Positions 13,596 to 22,674 of a stretch of DNA of 64,000 nt are shown here, piece by piece. Origin of the DNA: the human T2T-CHM13v2.0 reference genome, Homo sapiens. Position 1 is the first letter of the stretch. Each line of letters begins with the position of its first letter. Location: NCBI RefSeq assembly GCF_009914755.1, contig NC_060936.1. One strand, written 5' to 3'. Under the pieces are notes generated by a model. It ran no database searches and was not told the origin of the DNA. It was given only the letters and a program-made list of their open reading frames with translations. The position numbers and the translations under genes were made by a program.

Positions 13596-14532
13596 CCACC
13601 CCCACCCCGCCCCCCTCATTCACATTTTAAGTGAGGCATTACAGAGTTTTAAATCAAGTTCTTTAACATTTTTAGTAAGCAATTTTACTATTAATAGTAA
13701 ACTTCAGAAAATCTTGATCGTTTTCAGTTTGAGATATTCTGTTCAGTTATTGAACCGTGTGACCCAGTTTTGGTTTGGAAGATATGATTACTGTCAGGAC
13801 TGGGTACTTACTATACCATAGGACTCAGAGTCACAGACAAAAATAAATATTTCTTGGGTTTAGATAATTAGGTTATATTTTATAAAGAACAAAACACAAA
13901 CAAAAAAATAACTATGCTACAAGGGAAAATATAAGTTCTATTCTAATCAAAGAATTGAGACCACTACAAAAATAAAAAAAAACCCCAAAACCATGAAATA
14001 TTTAAACAATTCCATATAAGTTAAATACTTAAGGAAGAGTTTTAACTGTCATACAAATATCTACAGTATTTCTATCCTCCATCGGGGCCCTAACTTTCAT
14101 CCTTAATTTATGTGAAACCCAAAATCACTCATTTGGTCATGCAACAAATATTGAGGGCACGAAAGTATGCCAGACTCTATTTCTTTTAAGTAACTCAATT
14201 TTTCACTTGCATTAAAGAAAATTGAACTTCTCCGAGTGTCTCACTGTCTTAGAAATTAAACTAACACCAGTATTGTGTACTCACTTGAAGTCTTTATGGA
14301 GTAGGAGAAAGTACTTAGAAATGACACGTCAGCAAAAAGGAACAGGGGAGCCTTCCTGGCAGAAGAAGAGGCAAATGTCAAGATCAAGCGGTGCGGAATC
14401 CTTCGCCAGCTGGGTTCCAATCTTGACTCCAGTTCTTTAACCCCTGGGGCTGGGAAACTCCCTTAGAGTGACTTCAGCCCACCGCACCAAGGAAGCTATA
14501 TGACTTCTTCATGTTTAGAATAGCTAGAGCAA

Positions 14533-14838
14533 GACCAAGCGTGGTGGCTCACGCCTGAAATGCCAGCACTTTGGGAGGCGGAGGCGGGTGAATCACTTGA
14601 GGCCAGGAGTTCAAGACCAGCCTGGCCAACATGGTGAAACCCCGTATCTACCAAAAAAAAAAAAAAAAAATACAAAAATTAGCCAGGCGTGGTGGCGCAG
14701 GCCTGTAATCCCAGCTACTCGGGAAGCTGAGGCAGGTGAATCGCTTGAACCCGGGAGGCGGAGGCGAGATCGTGCCACTGCACTCCAGCCTCGGTGGCAG
14801 AGCTAGACTTGGTCTCGAAAAGAAAGGAAAAAAGAAAA
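14533..14838 (+). mobile_element. Alu (AluS) with right-arm deletion
   Basis: Alu dimer with long central A-tract. Confidence 0.9.
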
Positions 14839-15124
14839 GGTAGAGAAGGGGCAGATTAGTTAACGCGGCATGGATCACACCGCATCCTGGGGTGCCAAGC
14901 CTAATGAGAAGTTAGGAAGGACAGAGCCAGGAGTAGAGCGAGGCTGTTATACGGAGCTTTACCGGAGGCCGGGGCGACCCCTACGGCCTGGACGCAGGCT
15001 GATCACCAGGTCTTCCGCCCCCTACCCTCGCCTACTGGAAAGTGCGCTTAACTGGTAGCACCAGCCCCACCTTTCTCCAAGACCCTCACTACACCCCGGG
15101 AGTACCGGGTAGGACCACGCGCTT

Positions 15125-15835
15125 GGTAATCCCACAGCTGTCTCTCTTACATTCTCACTGAACTTATTAGAACCTAACCCGCCACCCGTTTCCCTTCTAG
15201 ACCCCCAGGCTGCTCTGAACAGGGCCTTTACTCGGAAGCCAGGGCTTACCTCCCGGCTGCGATAGGGTTATTTGTGATGGGCATGACACTGCTCGGAGCG
15301 GGGGATTCCCGGCAACTTGGCGACATGCAGGTGATCTGGCCTTTCATGCCGGCGTGACCCCCACTGCCTGCCTGCCAACTCCACGCCCGCCGCCAGGTGG
15401 CCGAGCAGGACGCTACCCGCTTGGCGTAGGCAACTTTACGCAGCTGGCTAAGAGGGAATCGCAGGGTGTCGCGAGTTTCGCCCGGCCGCCTTAATCTCAG
15501 CATCTGAGCTTGGTCACCTCTCACTCAACGTCAGCGATTAAGTAAAATAGTACCCAGTAAGACTACGCGCCACACTAGAGCTGCATTCAGCTTTCGGGCT
15601 TGCAGGTAGCGGCGTGCTGCGACCTCCCATTTCCTGCGACTTAGCAAGCCCTGCACACGCACGAACCGCCCTTGACGCGTGACGCTCACCCCTGAAGGCC
15701 AGCAGGAAGTCACCTAAGCCCTGATTTACATGGAAGCCATCCGATACGTGCTTATGGGCCAACGACTCGGCCGCTTAGAAGACCATGACCAGTTCTAACA
15801 CTAGGGCTTTGTACAAGCACTCTTCTAAACAAAAT
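15125..15835 (-). pseudogene. Decayed inverted duplicate of H2AJ (unprocessed pseudogene; former CDS about 15268-15511)
   Basis: Colinear minus-strand blocks match the H2AJ promoter, 5' UTR (GAGAGGTGACCAAG vs GAGAGGTGATCATG), CDS (CTGCGTAAAGTTGCCTACGCCAAGCGGGT, ACCTGGCGGCGGGCGTGGAGT, CACCTGCATGTCGCCA, CGCTCCGAGCAGTGTCATGCCCATCA), stop context, stem-loop relic and poly(A) region. Confidence 0.8.
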
Positions 15836-16041
15836 CCGGTGTCTGGATTTTGGGAGGTCACTACTGCGTTGCGCGGCACCTCCAGGGTCGTACCTAAGCA
15901 CAGGCGGAACCCCCTCCTTGAGGTCTAGTTCTCCCCGCGCCCGCCAAGTCTAATCCCGAGCAGATGCTCGGGCCGCGAATATCCCATTTCCGGTATCCGG
16001 AAGGCGACATCAAAGGGTTGATATTTACCCGTTATCTAGGA

Positions 16042-16058
16042 AGTGTTAACAGCTCTTT
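16042..16058 (-). terminator. Histone downstream element (U7 snRNA binding site)
   Basis: Minus strand AAAGAGCTGTTAACACT, about 15 nt 3' of the stem-loop, complementary to the 5' end of U7. Confidence 0.9.
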
Positions 16059-16073
16059 CTGTGACAGTTTGGG

Positions 16074-16089
16074 GGCCCTGAAAAGGGCC
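16074..16089 (-). terminator. Histone 3' stem-loop (SLBP site) of H4C16
   Basis: Minus strand reads AAA-GGCCCTTTTCAGGGCC-CCCAA, a perfect 6-bp stem and 4-nt loop about 33 nt after the stop codon. Confidence 0.95.
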
Positions 16090-16122
16090 TTTTGGAGTCT
16101 GTAGAGAAGCTGTGGGGACAGC

Positions 16123-16608
<486 letters not shown>

Positions 16609-17804
16609 TCAGCGAAACCAGCCTGATTTTTTTGTTGTTTGCTGTTTTGGGAAAATTTTTTCTGATGTTTGGAGAAAGGTTCATGGTGATACGTTTTAAA
16701 GTTAAAACAGTATGAGCTAAAAGAATTTATATTGCCTTTTCTCAGCGCTTAAATAAAAGTAGGCCAGATCCTATGCACGTTCCTTGTTCTGTCCCTCCCT
16801 CCTTCTGTTTTTTCAAACGGAATTCCTGACTTACTATGAAACTCTATAAAAACCTGAAAAGCTTTACATCCGAGATTTCAAAGCAATTACTTAAAATTTA
16901 AAATTTTTCACACGTGGGTCTTCTGAAGACATAGTAGGGGGAGAGGACTTTTTTCTCTTTTACGGCCCTGCAGATAATTAAAATTCTTTCAATTGAAAAA
17001 AGAAAGTGCAGCTTCCCGTCCCCCACCTACACTCCACCCCCACCTCCCCCCGACCCCCGCCATTCCCCTTTCAGCTGCTTCTGCGCAATTTGCAGGTTTT
17101 CCTGCCCTGCAAGAGCCTGTGTGCTTTTCAACCAAGTAACTTCCTGTGGTTATTTAGTTGAAATATTGTCAATGTCTTATGTCATTCAAATCTCAGGTTC
17201 TCATCTCACATTTTCCACTTAAAAATTCAAAGTTCTTGTAAAACAATGGATGCCACAATCATGACTTGGAATAATGATTTCTACTGCAAATCCCCTCAGG
17301 AGGTTCTGAATCCCTTCCTTTCTCAAGAGAATCCCTGAACAAAAACGAAAGTTTCTGTAAGGTGTCACCGCTCTTCAAAGGTGTCAGGACCCTGTCTTCT
17401 CTAAAGGTTTTACTGTGTTAAAAAGCAGCTGTTATTTAGAGGATGAGTCATAAGTCTTTCCCAGGTAGTTAATTAGGATTCTGAGCAATGAATTTTAGTA
17501 AGTGGGGCTTCTTTGTCCCTGGTCTTGAAGATAAGCCTTTACAGCAGGAAGACTTTATGGTAAAATTTTGTTATATTTATAAATGCCTATAGTTTACATT
17601 TGTTTCAATCCATGCCCATCTTCATAACCCAAAAGGTATTTATTTTTCTTTTACTTTTTGTTAAAGATAAAAGAGTTGGAACACTGTCTTGAATGGCTGG
17701 AAAAAGTCCTGAATGGTCGAACTTCACTCATGATTTTAATATTTGACTCAGAGGGAAGAGGAAAAGTCTATCAGATCTTGAAGAGATAAGAATTATTGTA
17801 ATGG

Positions 17805-18173
<369 letters not shown>

Positions 18174-19559
18174 TCAAATTAGAAATCTCTTGCTTATTGG
18201 AATAAAAGAAAAAAAATCGTGTCTAAAATAGTAATACTTTTAAAAACTCTTGAAAATTCCCCAAGATACAGGCAAAAATTTAAGCTAGTTTACAGAACTC
18301 ATTCCAGGAACATCTCGTTAAAAACTGCATCAGAGATTTGTATGCCCATTTATTTGGTATATCTAAGAGTTATTGGATGCTTACTAACGTATTTAATTTT
18401 CAAAACACTTTGATACAGGTAGAGGAGTCAAATAACTTATCAAAGGTCACTGCTCAGTGGTAAAGCCAGGATTTAGGCTGAGGCAGACTGGCTCCGGAAA
18501 GACCGCCTAAACCATGACAATAGCTCTGAAGACATTTATTGAGTCCCCAGTATGGGTTCATCATTGTTCTAGGCAGTAATGACATATACATAAATATTTG
18601 AAAATGTTATTTCAATGAAGTCAAATCTTTATTCGGATAGTGAGAAGGTAAATTTGCTTTACTTTAAATGTAAATGAATCCACATAAAATGTTTATTTTA
18701 AAAAGCAAGCGTTCAACATTACATCACGTATCGGTGTTAACTGTGTTACTGAAAATGTTCAGGTAAAAATGAAATGACCTCGATGAATTAGGAGAAAGTA
18801 ATTTTTAATTAAAACAAAACACTTGAAACACTCTTTTTGTTTCAAAAAGCATGGGTCCACAATTCAGGTATATAAGAATAAGCTGCCATTCTGACTTTAG
18901 TCTCTGGACTCATTTACAAAGAGACCCGGGGGACCTCCACGTCTTCGCAGAGGACCCGATCCGCTGATCTGTGGCGCCCTGGCTTGCGGGGAGCAAGCCA
19001 AGGCCAAGACTTTGGCCTCTCCAATAAAACCTAGTGGCTCTTTGCAGGCCCATAGCCTCAAAGACAAAAGATATTTTGGCTAGGCGAGCTTGTTCCTCCC
19101 GTCAGCACAGGAAGCATTCACGTCTGGTCATCACTCTAGCTTCAGACTCAAAAGTGAACGATTGGCTGGCTGTGAGCCGCAGGACCCTGCGGGGAGACCA
19201 GGGTGGTCTCTACACTGTTGGGTAGCTAGCTGGAGGCAAGGCGCTTGTATAAGAAACAGTCCACGGACCCTGTCCTGGGCAGGCAGAATTCCGCGGACAG
19301 GCTGTTGTTTCGCCTAAGCAGCACGGGCTGCGGAGACAGAAACCTACCTGAGTAGTACGGTGTATTATATGAGAACATCCACTTAGCATAGCAACGTCTA
19401 CGGACAACCCCTGTAGCTCTTCTTCTGGATTGTTTTCTGTTTCCAACCATGTTTTCTTATTTCCTACGAGTTTATGTGCTTGGAAGCGAGCGTGGTCGTG
19501 GAAAACCCGTAACCGCTAAATTCATCTGGGTCCCCAAAGACTGAGCCGGCTGGCCTCGT

Positions 19560-20209
<650 letters not shown>

Positions 20210-20248
20210 CCCTGACGCCGCCCTCAGGGAGCTGGCTCCCCCAGCAAA

Positions 20249-20264
20249 GGCCCTTTTCATGGTC
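20249..20264 (+). other. Degenerate histone stem-loop in the H2AJ 3' UTR
   Basis: AAA-GGCCCTTTTCATGGTC versus canonical GGCCCTTTTCAGGGCC (2 substitutions), 40 nt after the stop. Confidence 0.8.
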
Positions 20265-20353
20265 GTCCCGCAATGCTTTTGAATGTGCTGGATGTCATGG
20301 AGGGCCGGTGACATCTAGCGGGGAGGTGGGCGGCGAGGGTCCCGGCGGGAGCC

Positions 20354-20359
20354 AATAAA
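20354..20359 (+). terminator. H2AJ polyadenylation signal AATAAA
   Basis: AATAAA 145 nt after the stop, followed by GT-rich sequence. H2AJ is known to be polyadenylated. Confidence 0.75.
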
Positions 20360-22674
20360 GTTGGTGAAAATCGTTTGGTCGAGAGAGCTGTGTAGTCGCG
20401 GGGACATGCCGGATGGCCCCAGGGGAGGGGGGCGACCGGGAAACCCCTGGAGCAGGCACTGGTGGGTGGGCTTGAGCCACTCTGGACGGCTTTAGTCCGC
20501 AGGTCACCCTCGAGGCGTCAGGGGAGGGTGGCCTGGAGGTGGGCAGGGTGGAAGCCACCTCGCTGTCAGTAGGGCAAAGGGGAGGCAGAGTCGGTGCGGT
20601 GAGGCCTCCTTCGGAATTATTTTTACTTCCCTTTCACAGAGCCTTCGCTCTCCTGCCAGTTTGTGAGCACTCAGGACCAAGTTCTGGGAAGATACCGTCG
20701 GATCGAGCTGAGCTCGGGGCAGGAAGTGTCTGCGGCCATATTTTTCAAAAAGTGGAGTAACTTTCCGTCTTGGAAGGGTGGCTCTGATGGCACGATGTCA
20801 ACTTGAGATTCTTCCTAGCCTAGTAGCTGCTGTGCTTTCATGCTTTGGATATCAGATATCTTTATATAGCACTTTTATGTTCATATTTTTTTTTTAATGA
20901 AGGAAACGTTCAATAAGTGAGTCATGAGGTTGGAAATTCGTTCCCCTGACAGTCATATTGCATAACATTGCAGCGCCTTTAGTCGTGGGTTACATATGCT
21001 TGAGCTTTTAAAGTGATGTTGTCAAGTTTCTAGCTTCATAATGATCCTGTCTTCATCATATCATATTCACTTTGAGAATCGGTTTGACTTTGCTTTCAAA
21101 CAAAACAAAAACCTCTTGCTTTTAGGGGTTCTTACCCAACAAATAACCTGTTTGAACTCTCTTATATTCTCCCACTAGCCTGAAGCAATGACCTCATTCC
21201 AGTAATGTCTTTGGGAGTTGCATTGCCTAATGGCACAATATTGCTTTAATAAACATGTAAGGAAAGATAGGACCAAATATGTAAGTGCAGGGGGAAACAC
21301 ATTTCAGACCAGGAATCCACATTGAAAAGTTAACACTAGTAATCATCTTCTGCCCTTAATTGACACTCCTATTTATTTCATCCTCAGCAAATTTCATCCT
21401 GGCTCACAGACCCCACAAAAAAGATCCCAGTACAGATTTCACATCTTTGGATTCATCTTTCCTGTGAGTCGGAATTGAAGTCTTCCCCAAAAATATATGT
21501 ATATATTGTATGTCTTCATCCTTGGTAGCGGCTGGCCCATTTTCCCACATGGACTTTATTTTGTCCCCAGTATTTATTGAACAGCTGTCTATGCCAGGCT
21601 CTGTACAAAGTGATAGGAGTAGAGCTGTGAATGAGGCCAACCAGATTTCCACTCTCTCGGAGCTCACTTTATTTTTATTGGTTCCTGAAGACGGGACAAG
21701 GAACAAATACATACGTTAATATGAGAGATCAGCTTCTGTTAGTACTTGTACCTCTCTGCTGTGTGTGGATGAATGATGGAATTACTTCTCCCATGTTGCC
21801 ATTTTTGAGGTGTACAAAGGTCAGGCCGTACACACCTCTGTTAGGAGGCAAATTATTGGGCAGGTTCGAGATGTTCTGCTATTTACTCTGTGGTTTTGTC
21901 ATATGTAAAAGTCATAACACCTGTTTTAAGGATTGAGATTGTTCATTTACTGTGTGCCACATATTAGACAATAAATGGAAAAAAGTACCATGTTCAATGG
22001 GGGTATGGGTTTATCCTTATAGGTTAAATTATAGGTAAACATTAATAGGACTTTTTAAAAAATGCCTCATTGTTAGAACTACTACTCACAGTTACCACTT
22101 GGGGTCAGTGGAACAAAATGCATATATGGTTTTGACATTTGAGTCTAAATTTCTTAAAGGGATGAGGCATCTGAGGGATTGTTACCAAAATGATGAAGAA
22201 ATAAGGACAAGGGACATCAAGACATTCATAAGAAAAAGCACCTTTGCCTTCCCCTGGGAAGATTCACAGGAATCTGTCCAGCTCTTGTTACATGATGAGC
22301 AACATAGACAAGATACGAGGCATTGTAACTGCCCTGTCGCCACCCGCCTCTCCCACCACTACCCAAAGGATTCTTAGCATCCCCTCACATACTCTGCCTG
22401 CCTCAACGTTCAGTCAGCCCCTCACCATTTTTGTTTTTGAGAGTTTTTTTTTTAACCCGAATAGTTTACTGGCTGTTTAAAATGCATACTCCTACAAAAT
22501 CAGCTCAGCCCATGATCCATGATGAACAAACAGTAGTTCTTGCTGATGTGTGATTATGAATTTAAAAGGCCAGTATTTCTTTAAGCATAAGACCATATGG
22601 AAAAAGGCCTAAGACAAAATCTGATGGGAACTGAATTCCAGTTTTTAATAGAGTTATAATCCATAGTTTTATTT

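What the first reader, a model, noticed from the sequence alone, without database searches (positions are those of the whole stretch)
15125..15835. Hidden inverted fossil copy of H2AJ directly downstream of H4C16
Seen: the minus strand aligns colinearly, by eye, with H2AJ 19475-20395. Upstream, CCTGATTTACAT matches CCTCATTTACAT and GCAGCTCTAGTGTGGCGCGTAG matches GCAGTTCGGGTGCGGTACGTTG. At the start, GAGAGGTGACCAAG matches GAGAGGTGATCATG (ATG became AAG at 15511). Coding blocks include [84 protein letters not shown] and CACCTGCATGTCGCCA/CACCTGCAGCTCGCCA. The stop context CAAATAACCCT matches CAAATGACCCT. A stem-loop relic AAAGGCCCTGTTCAGAGCA lies at 15211-15226. The poly(A) region AATAAGTTCAGTGAGAAT...GAGACAGCTGTG matches AATAAAGTTGGTGAAAAT...GAGAGAGCTGTG. 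The former CDS shrank from 390 to about 244 nt by deletions, one of them between two TGGAG repeats. Inference: homology covers promoter and post-poly(A) flank, so this is a DNA-level duplication rather than a retrocopy, and H4C16 sits between two outward-facing H2AJ-type units. I am not aware of this being annotated.
Basis: partly seen in the sequence, partly recalled or inferred. Interest (0 to 1): 0.8.

Follow-up and report, generated by a model that had tools for sequence, protein, structure and literature searches.

The report
Mirror-image fossil H2A.J and H4 genes
Beside the human H4C16 and H2AJ histone genes lie two badly decayed dead copies, one H2A.J-like and one H4-like, arranged as a mirror image, which indicates that this small locus arose by an old inverted duplication and then lost one gene from each arm.

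Summary
The minus strand of 15125-15835 aligns colinearly with the H2AJ unit at 19475-20395. The score is 548, against 169 +/- 23 for 200 dinucleotide shuffles. It is also the best of 404 native windows. The upstream region, pseudo-CDS and 3' flank are each significant alone. An H2A profile built from genes on other chromosomes finds the pseudo-CDS at E 0.0048. The flanks match H2AJ better than any of 21 other H2A loci.

A psi-H4 on the + strand at 18901-19010 lies upstream of H2AJ (H4 profile E 1.7e-7). It shares H4C16-specific synonymous states at 8 of 11 informative sites.

The locus therefore reads [psiH2A.J <- H4C16 <-] ... [-> psiH4 -> H2AJ]. I interpret this as an old inverted duplication of a tandem H4->H2A unit with reciprocal gene loss. 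Decay of about 0.3 substitutions per site in both fossils suggests an age of roughly 100-300 Myr, which is an inference.

Neither fossil appears in the RefSeq table or the HGNC tables. BLAST and Pfam miss both. This is a new member of a known kind, of moderate interest. No other mammalian genome could be searched here.

The parts
15125..15835 (-). psi-H2A.J: the whole fossil unit (promoter relic, pseudo-CDS, 3' flank)
   Evidence: Colinear alignment to 19475-20395 with 437/646 identities and K2P about 0.43. z is 16.6 against shuffles. It ranks first of 404 native windows. Colinear top hits span 15823-15133.
15512..15835 (-). Relic of the H2AJ-type promoter and 5' UTR. The CCAAT box is lost: CCAATGG in H2AJ reads GAAATGG here.
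   Evidence: Score 118.5 against a shuffle max of 44. It matches the H2AJ upstream region better than that of any of 21 other H2A loci: 139/125 against 114.5/97 at most.
15268..15511 (-). Pseudo-CDS of 244 nt against 390 nt in H2AJ. The start is ATG->AAG. There are several deletions and frameshifts. The codons for A11V and for the C-terminal SQK region are deleted.
   Evidence: The H2A DNA profile from 16 genes on other chromosomes hits 15448-15378 at E 0.0048. Differences are spread evenly over codon positions: 25/78, 17/76 and 24/74. Pfam finds nothing in the 85-aa ORF.
15211..15229 (-). Histone 3' stem-loop relic. It matches the H4C16 stem-loop at 13 of 16 bases and the stem is broken.
   Evidence: Sequence. 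The stem-loop ends of the H4 and H2B profiles hit here weakly, at E 1.3 and 4.1. Rfam Histone3 does not score it.
15133..15205 (-). Relic of the H2AJ poly(A) module (AATAAG at 15168-15163, then GAGACAGCTGTG)
   Evidence: Score 91 against 20296-20400. None of 500 shuffles and none of 2948 native 86-nt windows reach it.
16070..16481 (-). H4C16, the living H4 gene of the left arm
   Evidence: Hub annotation. Rfam Histone3 stem-loop at 16049-16094, 33.2 bits against a gathering score of 34.
18901..19010 (+). psi-H4 core, equivalent to H4 CDS positions 140-242 (codons 47-81). It has a 1-nt deletion and an 8-nt insertion. The 5' half and the promoter are missing.
   Evidence: tblastn pieces lie in three frames. 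DNA alignment scores 264, first of 614 native windows. The H4 profile from 13 other genes gives E 1.7e-7. Identity to H4C16 is 78/102, against 71/102 at most for the 12 other H4 loci that align over this same span. It shares the H4C16 state at 8 of 11 sites where H4C16 departs from the majority.
19011..19075 (+). Possible psi-H4 3' UTR with a stem-loop relic at 19036-19050. The last ~20 codons and the stop are deleted.
   Evidence: Alignment to the H4C16 3' flank. This is weak: the score of 86 is not better than for other H4 genes' flanks, and Rfam does not score it.
19475..20395 (+). H2AJ, the living H2A gene of the right arm, with its promoter, a degenerate stem-loop at 20249-20264 and AATAAA at 20354-20359
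   Evidence: Hub annotation.
14500..16750 (.). CpG island covering both H4C16 and the fossil
   Evidence: CpG observed/expected is 0.63-0.91 across this span. It is 0.80 in the fossil and 0.33 for the whole window. Of the 43 fossil CpGs, 18 are shared with H2AJ.

Best explanation
The stretch at 15125-15835 on the minus strand is a dead H2A.J-type gene. With a second dead gene, psi-H4 at 18901-19010 on the + strand, it marks an old inverted duplication of a tandem H4->H2A unit. The arrangement is [psiH2A.J <- H4C16 <-] spacer [-> psiH4 -> H2AJ].

Each arm then lost one gene. The left arm kept H4 and the right arm kept H2A. Today's divergent H4C16/H2AJ pair therefore consists of survivors from opposite arms.

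The fossil H2A lost its start codon, CCAAT box, reading frame and stem-loop, and codes for nothing. The common ancestor of the two H2A copies already had a poly(A) module downstream of the stem-loop. Its stem-loop was probably still intact, because the two copies share no disabling change.

Shown here: homology, its extent, orientation, paralogue affinity and the degree of decay. Inferred: a single event, its age (on the order of 100-300 Myr) and the state of the ancestor.
For: 1. The homology is real and colinear. z is 16.6. The fossil window ranks first of 404 native windows. In 11 of 40 segments the top hit falls in the colinear band. Upstream region, CDS and 3' flank are each above all 100 shuffles.

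2. Profiles that do not include the window's own genes find both fossils. The H2A profile gives E 0.0048 at 15448-15378 and the H4 profile gives E 1.7e-7 at 18901-19012.

3. Both fossils are closest to their local living gene.
- The fossil's flanks score highest with H2AJ among 22 H2A loci. Upstream is 139/125 against 114.5/97 at most, and downstream is 177/115 against 108.5/85 at most.
- The poly(A) module is the best match in the whole window.
- psi-H4 is 78/102 identical to H4C16, against 71/102 at most for the 12 other H4 loci that align over the same span.
- psi-H4 shares the H4C16 state at 8 of 11 third-position sites where H4C16 differs from the majority of 13 other H4 genes. Three of those states are unique to H4C16.

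4. The geometry is mirrored. The genes have the same order and orientation in the two arms. The spacing is similar: from H4 CDS position 140 to the H2A start is 784 nt on the left (16295 to 15511) and 919 nt on the right (18901 to 19820).

5. Decay is similar at sites that are constrained in living genes. JC distance is 0.28 for psi-H4 (69 sites) and 0.33 for psi-H2A (135 sites invariant in 17 H2A genes).

6. H3 and H2B profiles find no other histone fossil in the 64 kb. The relics match exactly the two living gene types.

7. Inverted repeats containing pseudogenes are known in histone cluster 2 (PMC9526256, passages).
Against: - No homology is detectable between the arms in the H4-H2A intergenic spacer (z -0.3), inward of the H4 genes (z -0.2 and 0.6), or clearly beyond the H2A 3' ends (z 1.9). 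The two arms are therefore linked by the genes and their immediate flanks only. Decay of both copies at about 0.3 per site each would explain this, but it does not prove a single event.
- In the CDS the fossil is not clearly closer to H2AJ than to other H2A genes. Under strict scoring it scores 156 with H2AJ and up to 174 with others.
- The shared-state count is 15 H2AJ, 9 majority and 7 neither. It comes from an alignment fitted to H2AJ.
- The defining H2A.J codons (A11V and the SQK motif) are deleted, so the variant identity rests on the flanks.
- Protein-level searches are not significant: tblastn E 0.56 and no Pfam hit.
- No other species was examined, so age and ancestry are not tested.
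Confidence: 0.75

Rival explanations
1. Two separate events. An H2AJ copy was inserted in inverted orientation downstream of H4C16, and an H4C16 copy was independently inserted upstream of H2AJ. Alternatively, a tandem duplication was followed by an inversion.
For: No homology is detectable in the spacers between the genes or beyond them, so continuity of the arms is not shown.
Against: The order and orientation are mirrored, the spacing is similar (784 against 919 nt), and the decay is similar (JC 0.28 against 0.33). These are most simply explained by one event. Two independent insertions landing in exact mirror positions would be a coincidence.
Confidence: 0.1
2. The fossils are relics of other members of the ancestral amniote histone cluster, left behind when the cluster moved. 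On this reading there was no local duplication. The likeness to H2AJ and H4C16 is family-level homology or old concerted evolution.
For: [quoted passage not shown] The fossil CDS aligns about equally well to many H2A genes.
Against: The non-coding flanks and the poly(A) module match H2AJ specifically. psi-H4 shares 8 of 11 H4C16-specific synonymous states, and 3 of them are unique to H4C16. No H3 or H2B relics were found. Neutral DNA from before the bird-mammal split should no longer be alignable (inference).
Confidence: 0.1
3. The fossil is a processed pseudogene (retrocopy) of H2AJ mRNA.
For: None specific. H2AJ mRNA is polyadenylated, so retrocopies are possible in principle.
Against: Homology runs from about 265 nt upstream of the transcription start (19489 against 19754) to about 20 nt past the mRNA end (20392 against 20373). 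No A-tail follows. It lies 4 kb from its parent with a mirrored H4 partner.
Confidence: 0.01
4. The similarity is a chance or compositional effect between two GC-rich CpG-island stretches.
For: BLAST-like strict scoring is weak, and one scheme tied its best shuffle. tblastn gives E 0.56.
Against: Reversed and wrong-strand controls score 176.5 and 134 against 548. The fossil window ranks first of 404 native windows, which include other GC-rich ones. In 11 of 40 segments the top hit is colinear. An independent H2A profile hits it.
Confidence: 0.01

Closest known systems
Inverted repeat of histone cluster 2 (HIST2, chromosome 1), with H2AC18/H2AC19, H4C14/H4C15 and the primate pseudogenes H2BC19P/H2BC20P
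   Same: It is an inverted duplication inside a histone locus that carries H2A and H4 genes in both arms, and some arm members have become pseudogenes (PMC9526256, passages). The mirrored pairs appear in my own searches as equal-scoring hits on opposite strands of contig C1.
   Different: The HIST2 arms are young, nearly identical, and keep both H2A and both H4 genes. Here the arms have decayed to about 68% identity over the alignable parts, homology is lost between the genes, and exactly one gene survives per arm.
Named histone pseudogenes of cluster 1 (H2AC2P, H2AC3P, H2AC5P, H2AC9P, H2AC10P, H4C10P)
   Same: They are unprocessed dead copies of replication-type histone genes lying among living ones (PMC9526256, Tables 3 and 9). 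This is the birth-and-death pattern described in PMC13525598 (passages).
   Different: Weak, partial H2A and H4 matches in cluster 1, likely such pseudogenes (not identified by name), are still found by a plain DNA search of the genome at 71-83% identity.
H2AX, a gene with both a stem-loop and a downstream poly(A) site
   Same: The inferred ancestor of H2AJ and the fossil had a stem-loop followed by a poly(A) module. That layout is described for H2AX (PMC9526256, section 15 passage).
   Different: In H2AJ and the fossil the stem-loop is now degenerate, matching the H4C16 stem-loop at 14/16 and 13/16 bases. Dual use in the ancestor is an inference, not an observation.
Inverted duplications in the chicken histone cluster
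   Same: They show symmetric gene order around a centre within a vertebrate histone cluster.
   Different: I could not read that paper or the chicken sequence. My search did not return it, so this is only a lead.

Membership tests
H2A histone gene family (as a pseudogene) | Nucleotide homology to H2A coding sequence, detectable with a family profile that excludes the local gene | tested here: met
   An nhmmer profile of 16 H2A genes from other chromosomes hits 15448-15378 (-) at E 0.0048. The pseudo-CDS aligns to all 22 H2A loci.
H2A histone gene family (as a pseudogene) | Intact reading frame and a histone-fold domain in the translation (a living gene) | tested here: not met
   The start is ATG->AAG, 146 nt have been lost net, and there are frameshifts. 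Pfam finds no family in the 85-aa ORF. The sequence is therefore a pseudogene.
H2A.J-type gene (paralogue of H2AJ) | Non-coding flanks (promoter, 3' UTR, poly(A) module) specifically like H2AJ | tested here: met
   Both flanks score best of 22 H2A loci. For the poly(A) module, 0 of 500 shuffles and 0 of 2948 native windows reach the score.
H2A.J-type gene (paralogue of H2AJ) | A11V and the C-terminal SQK motif (defining residues per PMC5436145, passage) | not testable with these tools
   Both codon regions fall in deletions of the fossil: 19847-19852 and 20154-20202 have no counterpart.
Replication-dependent histone gene | 3' stem-loop (Rfam RF00032) | tested here: not met
   Only H4C16 scores (33.2 bits). 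The fossil, H2AJ and psi-H4 relics do not appear at E <= 10.
Processed pseudogene (retrocopy) | Homology confined to the mRNA, followed by an A-tail | tested here: not met
   Homology extends upstream of the transcription start and past the poly(A) site, and there is no A-run.
H4 histone gene family (psi-H4, as a pseudogene sister to H4C16) | Family-profile hit and shared derived states with H4C16 | tested here: met
   The profile of 13 other H4 genes gives E 1.7e-7. It shares the H4C16 state at 8 of 11 informative sites, the majority state at 1, and neither at 2.
Inverted segmental duplication | Two arms in opposite orientation with the same order of at least two markers | tested here: met
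   The order is H4 then H2A, read outward in both arms, with spacing of 784 against 919 nt.
Inverted segmental duplication | Continuous homology along the arms, including intergenic DNA | tested here: inconclusive
   The intergenic, inner and outer stretches are not above shuffles. This is expected if both copies decayed, but continuity is not shown.

The most novel reading that the evidence does not exclude
The dead H2A.J copy is not inert. Its DNA has been kept as an unmethylated CpG island for 100 Myr or more and now serves as regulatory DNA. It could be an enhancer, or part of the NPAT-bound histone-locus-body platform, for H4C16 and perhaps H2AJ.

The evidence is indirect. CpG observed/expected is 0.80 in the fossil against 0.33 in the window. 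The island runs 1.5 kb past the end of H4C16. Of the 43 fossil CpGs, 25 are not inherited from the H2AJ-like sequence. The hub's RefSeq table also places enhancer features at 15107-15702 and 15703-16299.
Probability: 0.2. Interest if true: 0.55.

Novelty: new member of a known kind. Interest (0 to 1): 0.4.

Why it matters
**Origin of the pair.** The locus is described in print as one H4 gene with a neighbouring H2A gene (PMC9526256; PMC13525598, passages). The two fossils show that it once held four genes in a palindrome. The present head-to-head pair is the result of reciprocal loss.

**State of the ancestral H2A gene.** The H2A gene that became H2A.J already had its downstream poly(A) module at the time of duplication. 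Its stem-loop was probably still working then. This bears on how a replication-type histone gene turned into a polyadenylated, senescence-linked variant.

**A testable prediction.** Marsupials or monotremes may keep a less decayed, or even intact, second H2A and second H4 at these positions.

**A gap in annotation.** Pseudogenes this old escape BLAST- and Pfam-based annotation, yet they can be recovered by gap-tolerant colinear alignment to their neighbours.

Tried and rejected
- **Protein-level detection.** tblastn with the H2AJ protein gave only E 0.56 at 15521-15408. tblastn with H4 gave E 0.059 at 18900-18932. Pfam found nothing in either translated fossil.
- **Whole-genome searches.** Searches of the window's own assembly with H2AJ DNA (28 matches), H4C16 DNA (17 matches) and Pfam PF00125 (150 matches scored) listed neither fossil.
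- **Other histone fossils.** H3 (18 sequences) and H2B (4 sequences) DNA profiles found no further fossil in the 64 kb. The only hits were weak ones at the stem-loops and E > 0.2 noise.
- **Extension of the arms.** The intergenic, inner and outer stretches are not above shuffles. One apparent outer match (14626-14810 against 20774-20933, z 4.4) proved to be an Alu plus a T-run and was discarded.
- **Long gap-tolerant alignment.** The alignment of whole arms runs on through unrelated DNA, because that scoring aligns anything. I did not use it for boundaries.
- **H2AJ affinity inside the CDS.** The result is equivocal.
- **Literature.** One paper search failed on a two-letter term and was re-sent. 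Searches returned no paper describing either fossil.
- **Material not seen.** Table 2 of bioRxiv 10.1101/720235 (pseudogene counts per cluster) is an image and was not seen. Supplementary Fig. 3 of PMC5436145 (the H2A.J phylogeny) was not seen.
- **Other species.** No other vertebrate genome is available through these tools.

Full report
**1. The observation**

I read both stretches.

- GAGAGGTGACCAAG lies at 15522-15509, so the former ATG is AAG at 15511-15509.
- The former stop context CAAATAACCCT has TAA at 15270-15268. The pseudo-CDS is therefore 244 nt against 390 nt in H2AJ.
- The stem-loop relic GGCCCTGTTCAGAGCA is at 15226-15211.
- AATAAG is at 15168-15163.
- The two TGGAG repeats in H2AJ (19986-19990 and 20010-20014) bracket 24 nt that the fossil lacks.

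A local alignment of revcomp(15000-15900) with 19400-20500 under gap-tolerant scoring gives 548. Two hundred dinucleotide-preserving shuffles give a mean of 169 (sd 23, max 233), so z is 16.6. The reversed sequence scores 176.5 and the wrong strand scores 134.

Stricter, BLAST-like schemes are much weaker. They gave z 5.9 and z 4.8, and one scheme tied its best shuffle at 17 (z 3.4). The signal therefore lies in a long chain of short blocks broken by many indels.

Among 404 native 900-nt windows of the 64 kb, on both strands, this window ranks first. The next unrelated window scores 174.5.

In a colinearity test I searched 40 overlapping 160-nt segments of 18100-21300, each against 24 kb on both strands. 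Eleven had their best hit on the minus strand inside a 550-nt colinear band, where about 0.5 would be expected by chance.

Taken separately, each part exceeds all 100 shuffles:
- Upstream of the ATG: 118.5 against a max of 44.
- CDS: 232 against a max of 48.
- 3' flank: 107 against a max of 32.

Overall, 437 of 646 aligned columns are identical, with 37 gaps and a K2P distance of about 0.43.

**2. What the fossil is**

I built a DNA profile from 16 H2A genes on other chromosomes, with H2AJ excluded. It hits 15448-15378 on the minus strand at E 0.0048. After H2AJ itself, this is the only hit in the window below E 1.

The pseudo-CDS aligns about equally well to all 22 H2A loci I collected. Inside the coding part it is therefore simply "H2A".

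The flanks discriminate.
- The upstream relic scores 139/125 with H2AJ and at most 114.5/97 with any other H2A locus.
- The downstream relic scores 177/115 with H2AJ and at most 108.5/85 with any other.
- The stretch after the stem-loop, which carries the AATAAA module, is the best match to H2AJ 20296-20400 in the whole window. None of 500 shuffles and none of 2948 native windows reach its score.

Homology starts about 265 nt upstream of the H2AJ transcription start and ends about 20 nt past the mRNA end. This is therefore a genomic copy and not a retrocopy.

The gene is dead.
- It has no start codon.
- The CCAAT box is lost.
- 146 nt have been lost net, and the frame is shifted.
- The codons for the H2A.J-defining A11V and SQK residues (PMC5436145, passage) are deleted.
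- Pfam sees no histone fold in the one 85-aa ORF.

Differences from H2AJ are spread evenly over codon positions, at 25/78, 17/76 and 24/74. The copy therefore lost constraint early.

**3. A second fossil, and the structure of the locus**

tblastn with the H4C16 protein gave three colinear pieces, in three different frames, at 18900-19020 on the + strand.

- DNA alignment to the H4C16 unit scores 264, first of 614 native windows.
- A profile of 13 H4 genes from other chromosomes hits 18901-19012 at E 1.7e-7.
- The fossil covers H4 CDS positions 140-242.
- The 5' half and the promoter are gone.
- The last ~20 codons are deleted.
- A possible stem-loop relic follows at 19036-19050, but the evidence for it is weak.

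This psi-H4 is specifically related to H4C16. It is 78/102 identical to H4C16, against 71/102 at most for the 12 other H4 loci that align over the same span. H4C16 differs from the majority of the 13 other intact H4 genes at 11 sites, all third codon positions. At these sites psi-H4 has the H4C16 base 8 times, the majority base once and neither twice. Three of the shared bases occur in no other H4 gene.

The locus therefore reads, left to right: psiH2A.J (-), H4C16 (-), about 2.4 kb of spacer including an Alu, psi-H4 (+), H2AJ (+). Read outward from the centre, both arms have H4 followed by H2A.

- Spacing is similar. H4 position 140 to the H2A start is 784 nt on the left and 919 nt on the right.
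- Decay is similar at sites that living genes keep constant. JC distance is 0.28 for psi-H4 (69 sites) and 0.33 for psi-H2A (135 sites).
- H3 and H2B profiles find no other relic in the window.

**4. Most likely history**

The best explanation is one inverted duplication of a tandem H4->H2A unit, followed by loss of the H2A copy in one arm and the H4 copy in the other.

The arms show no detectable similarity in the spacers or beyond the genes. That fits two neutrally decaying copies at about 0.3 substitutions per site each, but it means continuity is inferred and not shown.

With recalled mammalian neutral rates of about 1-2.2e-9 per site per year, 0.3 per site corresponds to roughly 100-300 Myr. 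This is a rough figure and probably a lower bound, because only the alignable blocks are counted. It agrees with H2A.J being reported only from mammals (PMC5436145, abstract and passage).

Both H2A copies share the poly(A) module, so that module predates the duplication. Their stem-loop relics carry different disabling changes. Against the H4C16 stem-loop, H2AJ differs at positions 12 and 15 and the fossil differs at positions 7, 13 and 16. The stem-loop was therefore probably intact at the time of duplication (inference).

**5. Rival explanations**

- *Two separate insertions, or a duplication followed by an inversion.* These are not excluded. They are less economical given the mirrored positions, spacing and decay.
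- *Relics of the ancestral amniote cluster.* This is suggested by the chicken synteny noted in PMC9526256 (section 30). It does not explain the H2AJ-specific flanks or the H4C16-specific synonymous states.
- *Retrocopy, or chance.* Both are rejected by the tests above.

**6. What is known**

HGNC's human tables list H2A and H4 pseudogenes only in clusters on other chromosomes (PMC9526256, sections 14 and 30 read in full). Reviews describe the chromosome-12 locus as a single H4 gene next to H2AJ (PMC9526256 and PMC13525598, passages). The hub's RefSeq table has no row at either fossil.

Five paper searches returned nothing on them. I could not check GENCODE or Ensembl tracks.

The nearest known analogue is the young inverted repeat of histone cluster 2, which also contains pseudogenes. 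I therefore class this as a new member of a known kind.

**7. Present-day role**

The fossil lies inside a CpG island that runs from about 14500 to 16750. CpG observed/expected is 0.80 in the fossil, 0.33 in the window and 0.54 in psi-H4. Only 18 of its 43 CpGs are shared with H2AJ. The hub lists RefSeq enhancer features over it.

The DNA has therefore probably stayed unmethylated in the germline. It may have been reused as regulatory sequence for H4C16. I rate this at about 0.2, and it cannot be tested with these tools.

**8. Verdict**

It extends to a mirrored psi-H4. I put interest at 0.4. It explains how the H4C16/H2AJ pair arose and makes a clear prediction for early-branching mammals, but it remains a pair of old pseudogenes from a familiar process.

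Noticed in passing
window 20249-20264 (+): H2AJ keeps a recognisable stem-loop relic, GGCCCTTTTCATGGTC, which matches the H4C16 stem-loop at 14 of 16 bases. It lies about 40 nt after the stop codon. [quoted passage not shown] Rfam Histone3 does not score the relic.
   Followed up: partly
window 15246-15503 (-): An 85-aa ATG ORF runs through most of the pseudo-CDS, starting 8 nt after the former start codon. It has no Pfam match. In 60% GC DNA an ORF of this length is not remarkable.
   Followed up: partly
window 14500-16750: The CpG island around H4C16 extends about 1.5 kb beyond the 3' end of that 412-nt gene and across the whole fossil.
   Followed up: partly
window 17806-18088 (+) and 14626-14818: There are Alu elements in the central spacer and just outside the left arm, seen as Rfam Metazoa_SRP and mir-1268 matches below the gathering score. 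The left one produced a spurious arm-extension signal.
   Followed up: yes
window 15722-15733 (-) and 19577-19586 (+): The best-kept upstream block shared by the fossil and H2AJ is ATGTAAAT. It resembles the octamer motif known from histone H2B promoters (recalled). It lies about 170 nt upstream of the H2AJ transcription start.
   Followed up: no
window 19820-19933 (+) and 16434-16309 (-): The N-terminal tails of H2AJ and H4C16 cross-match weakly in tblastn, at E 0.11-0.17. This explains the second-ranked window in the H4 native control.
   Followed up: yes
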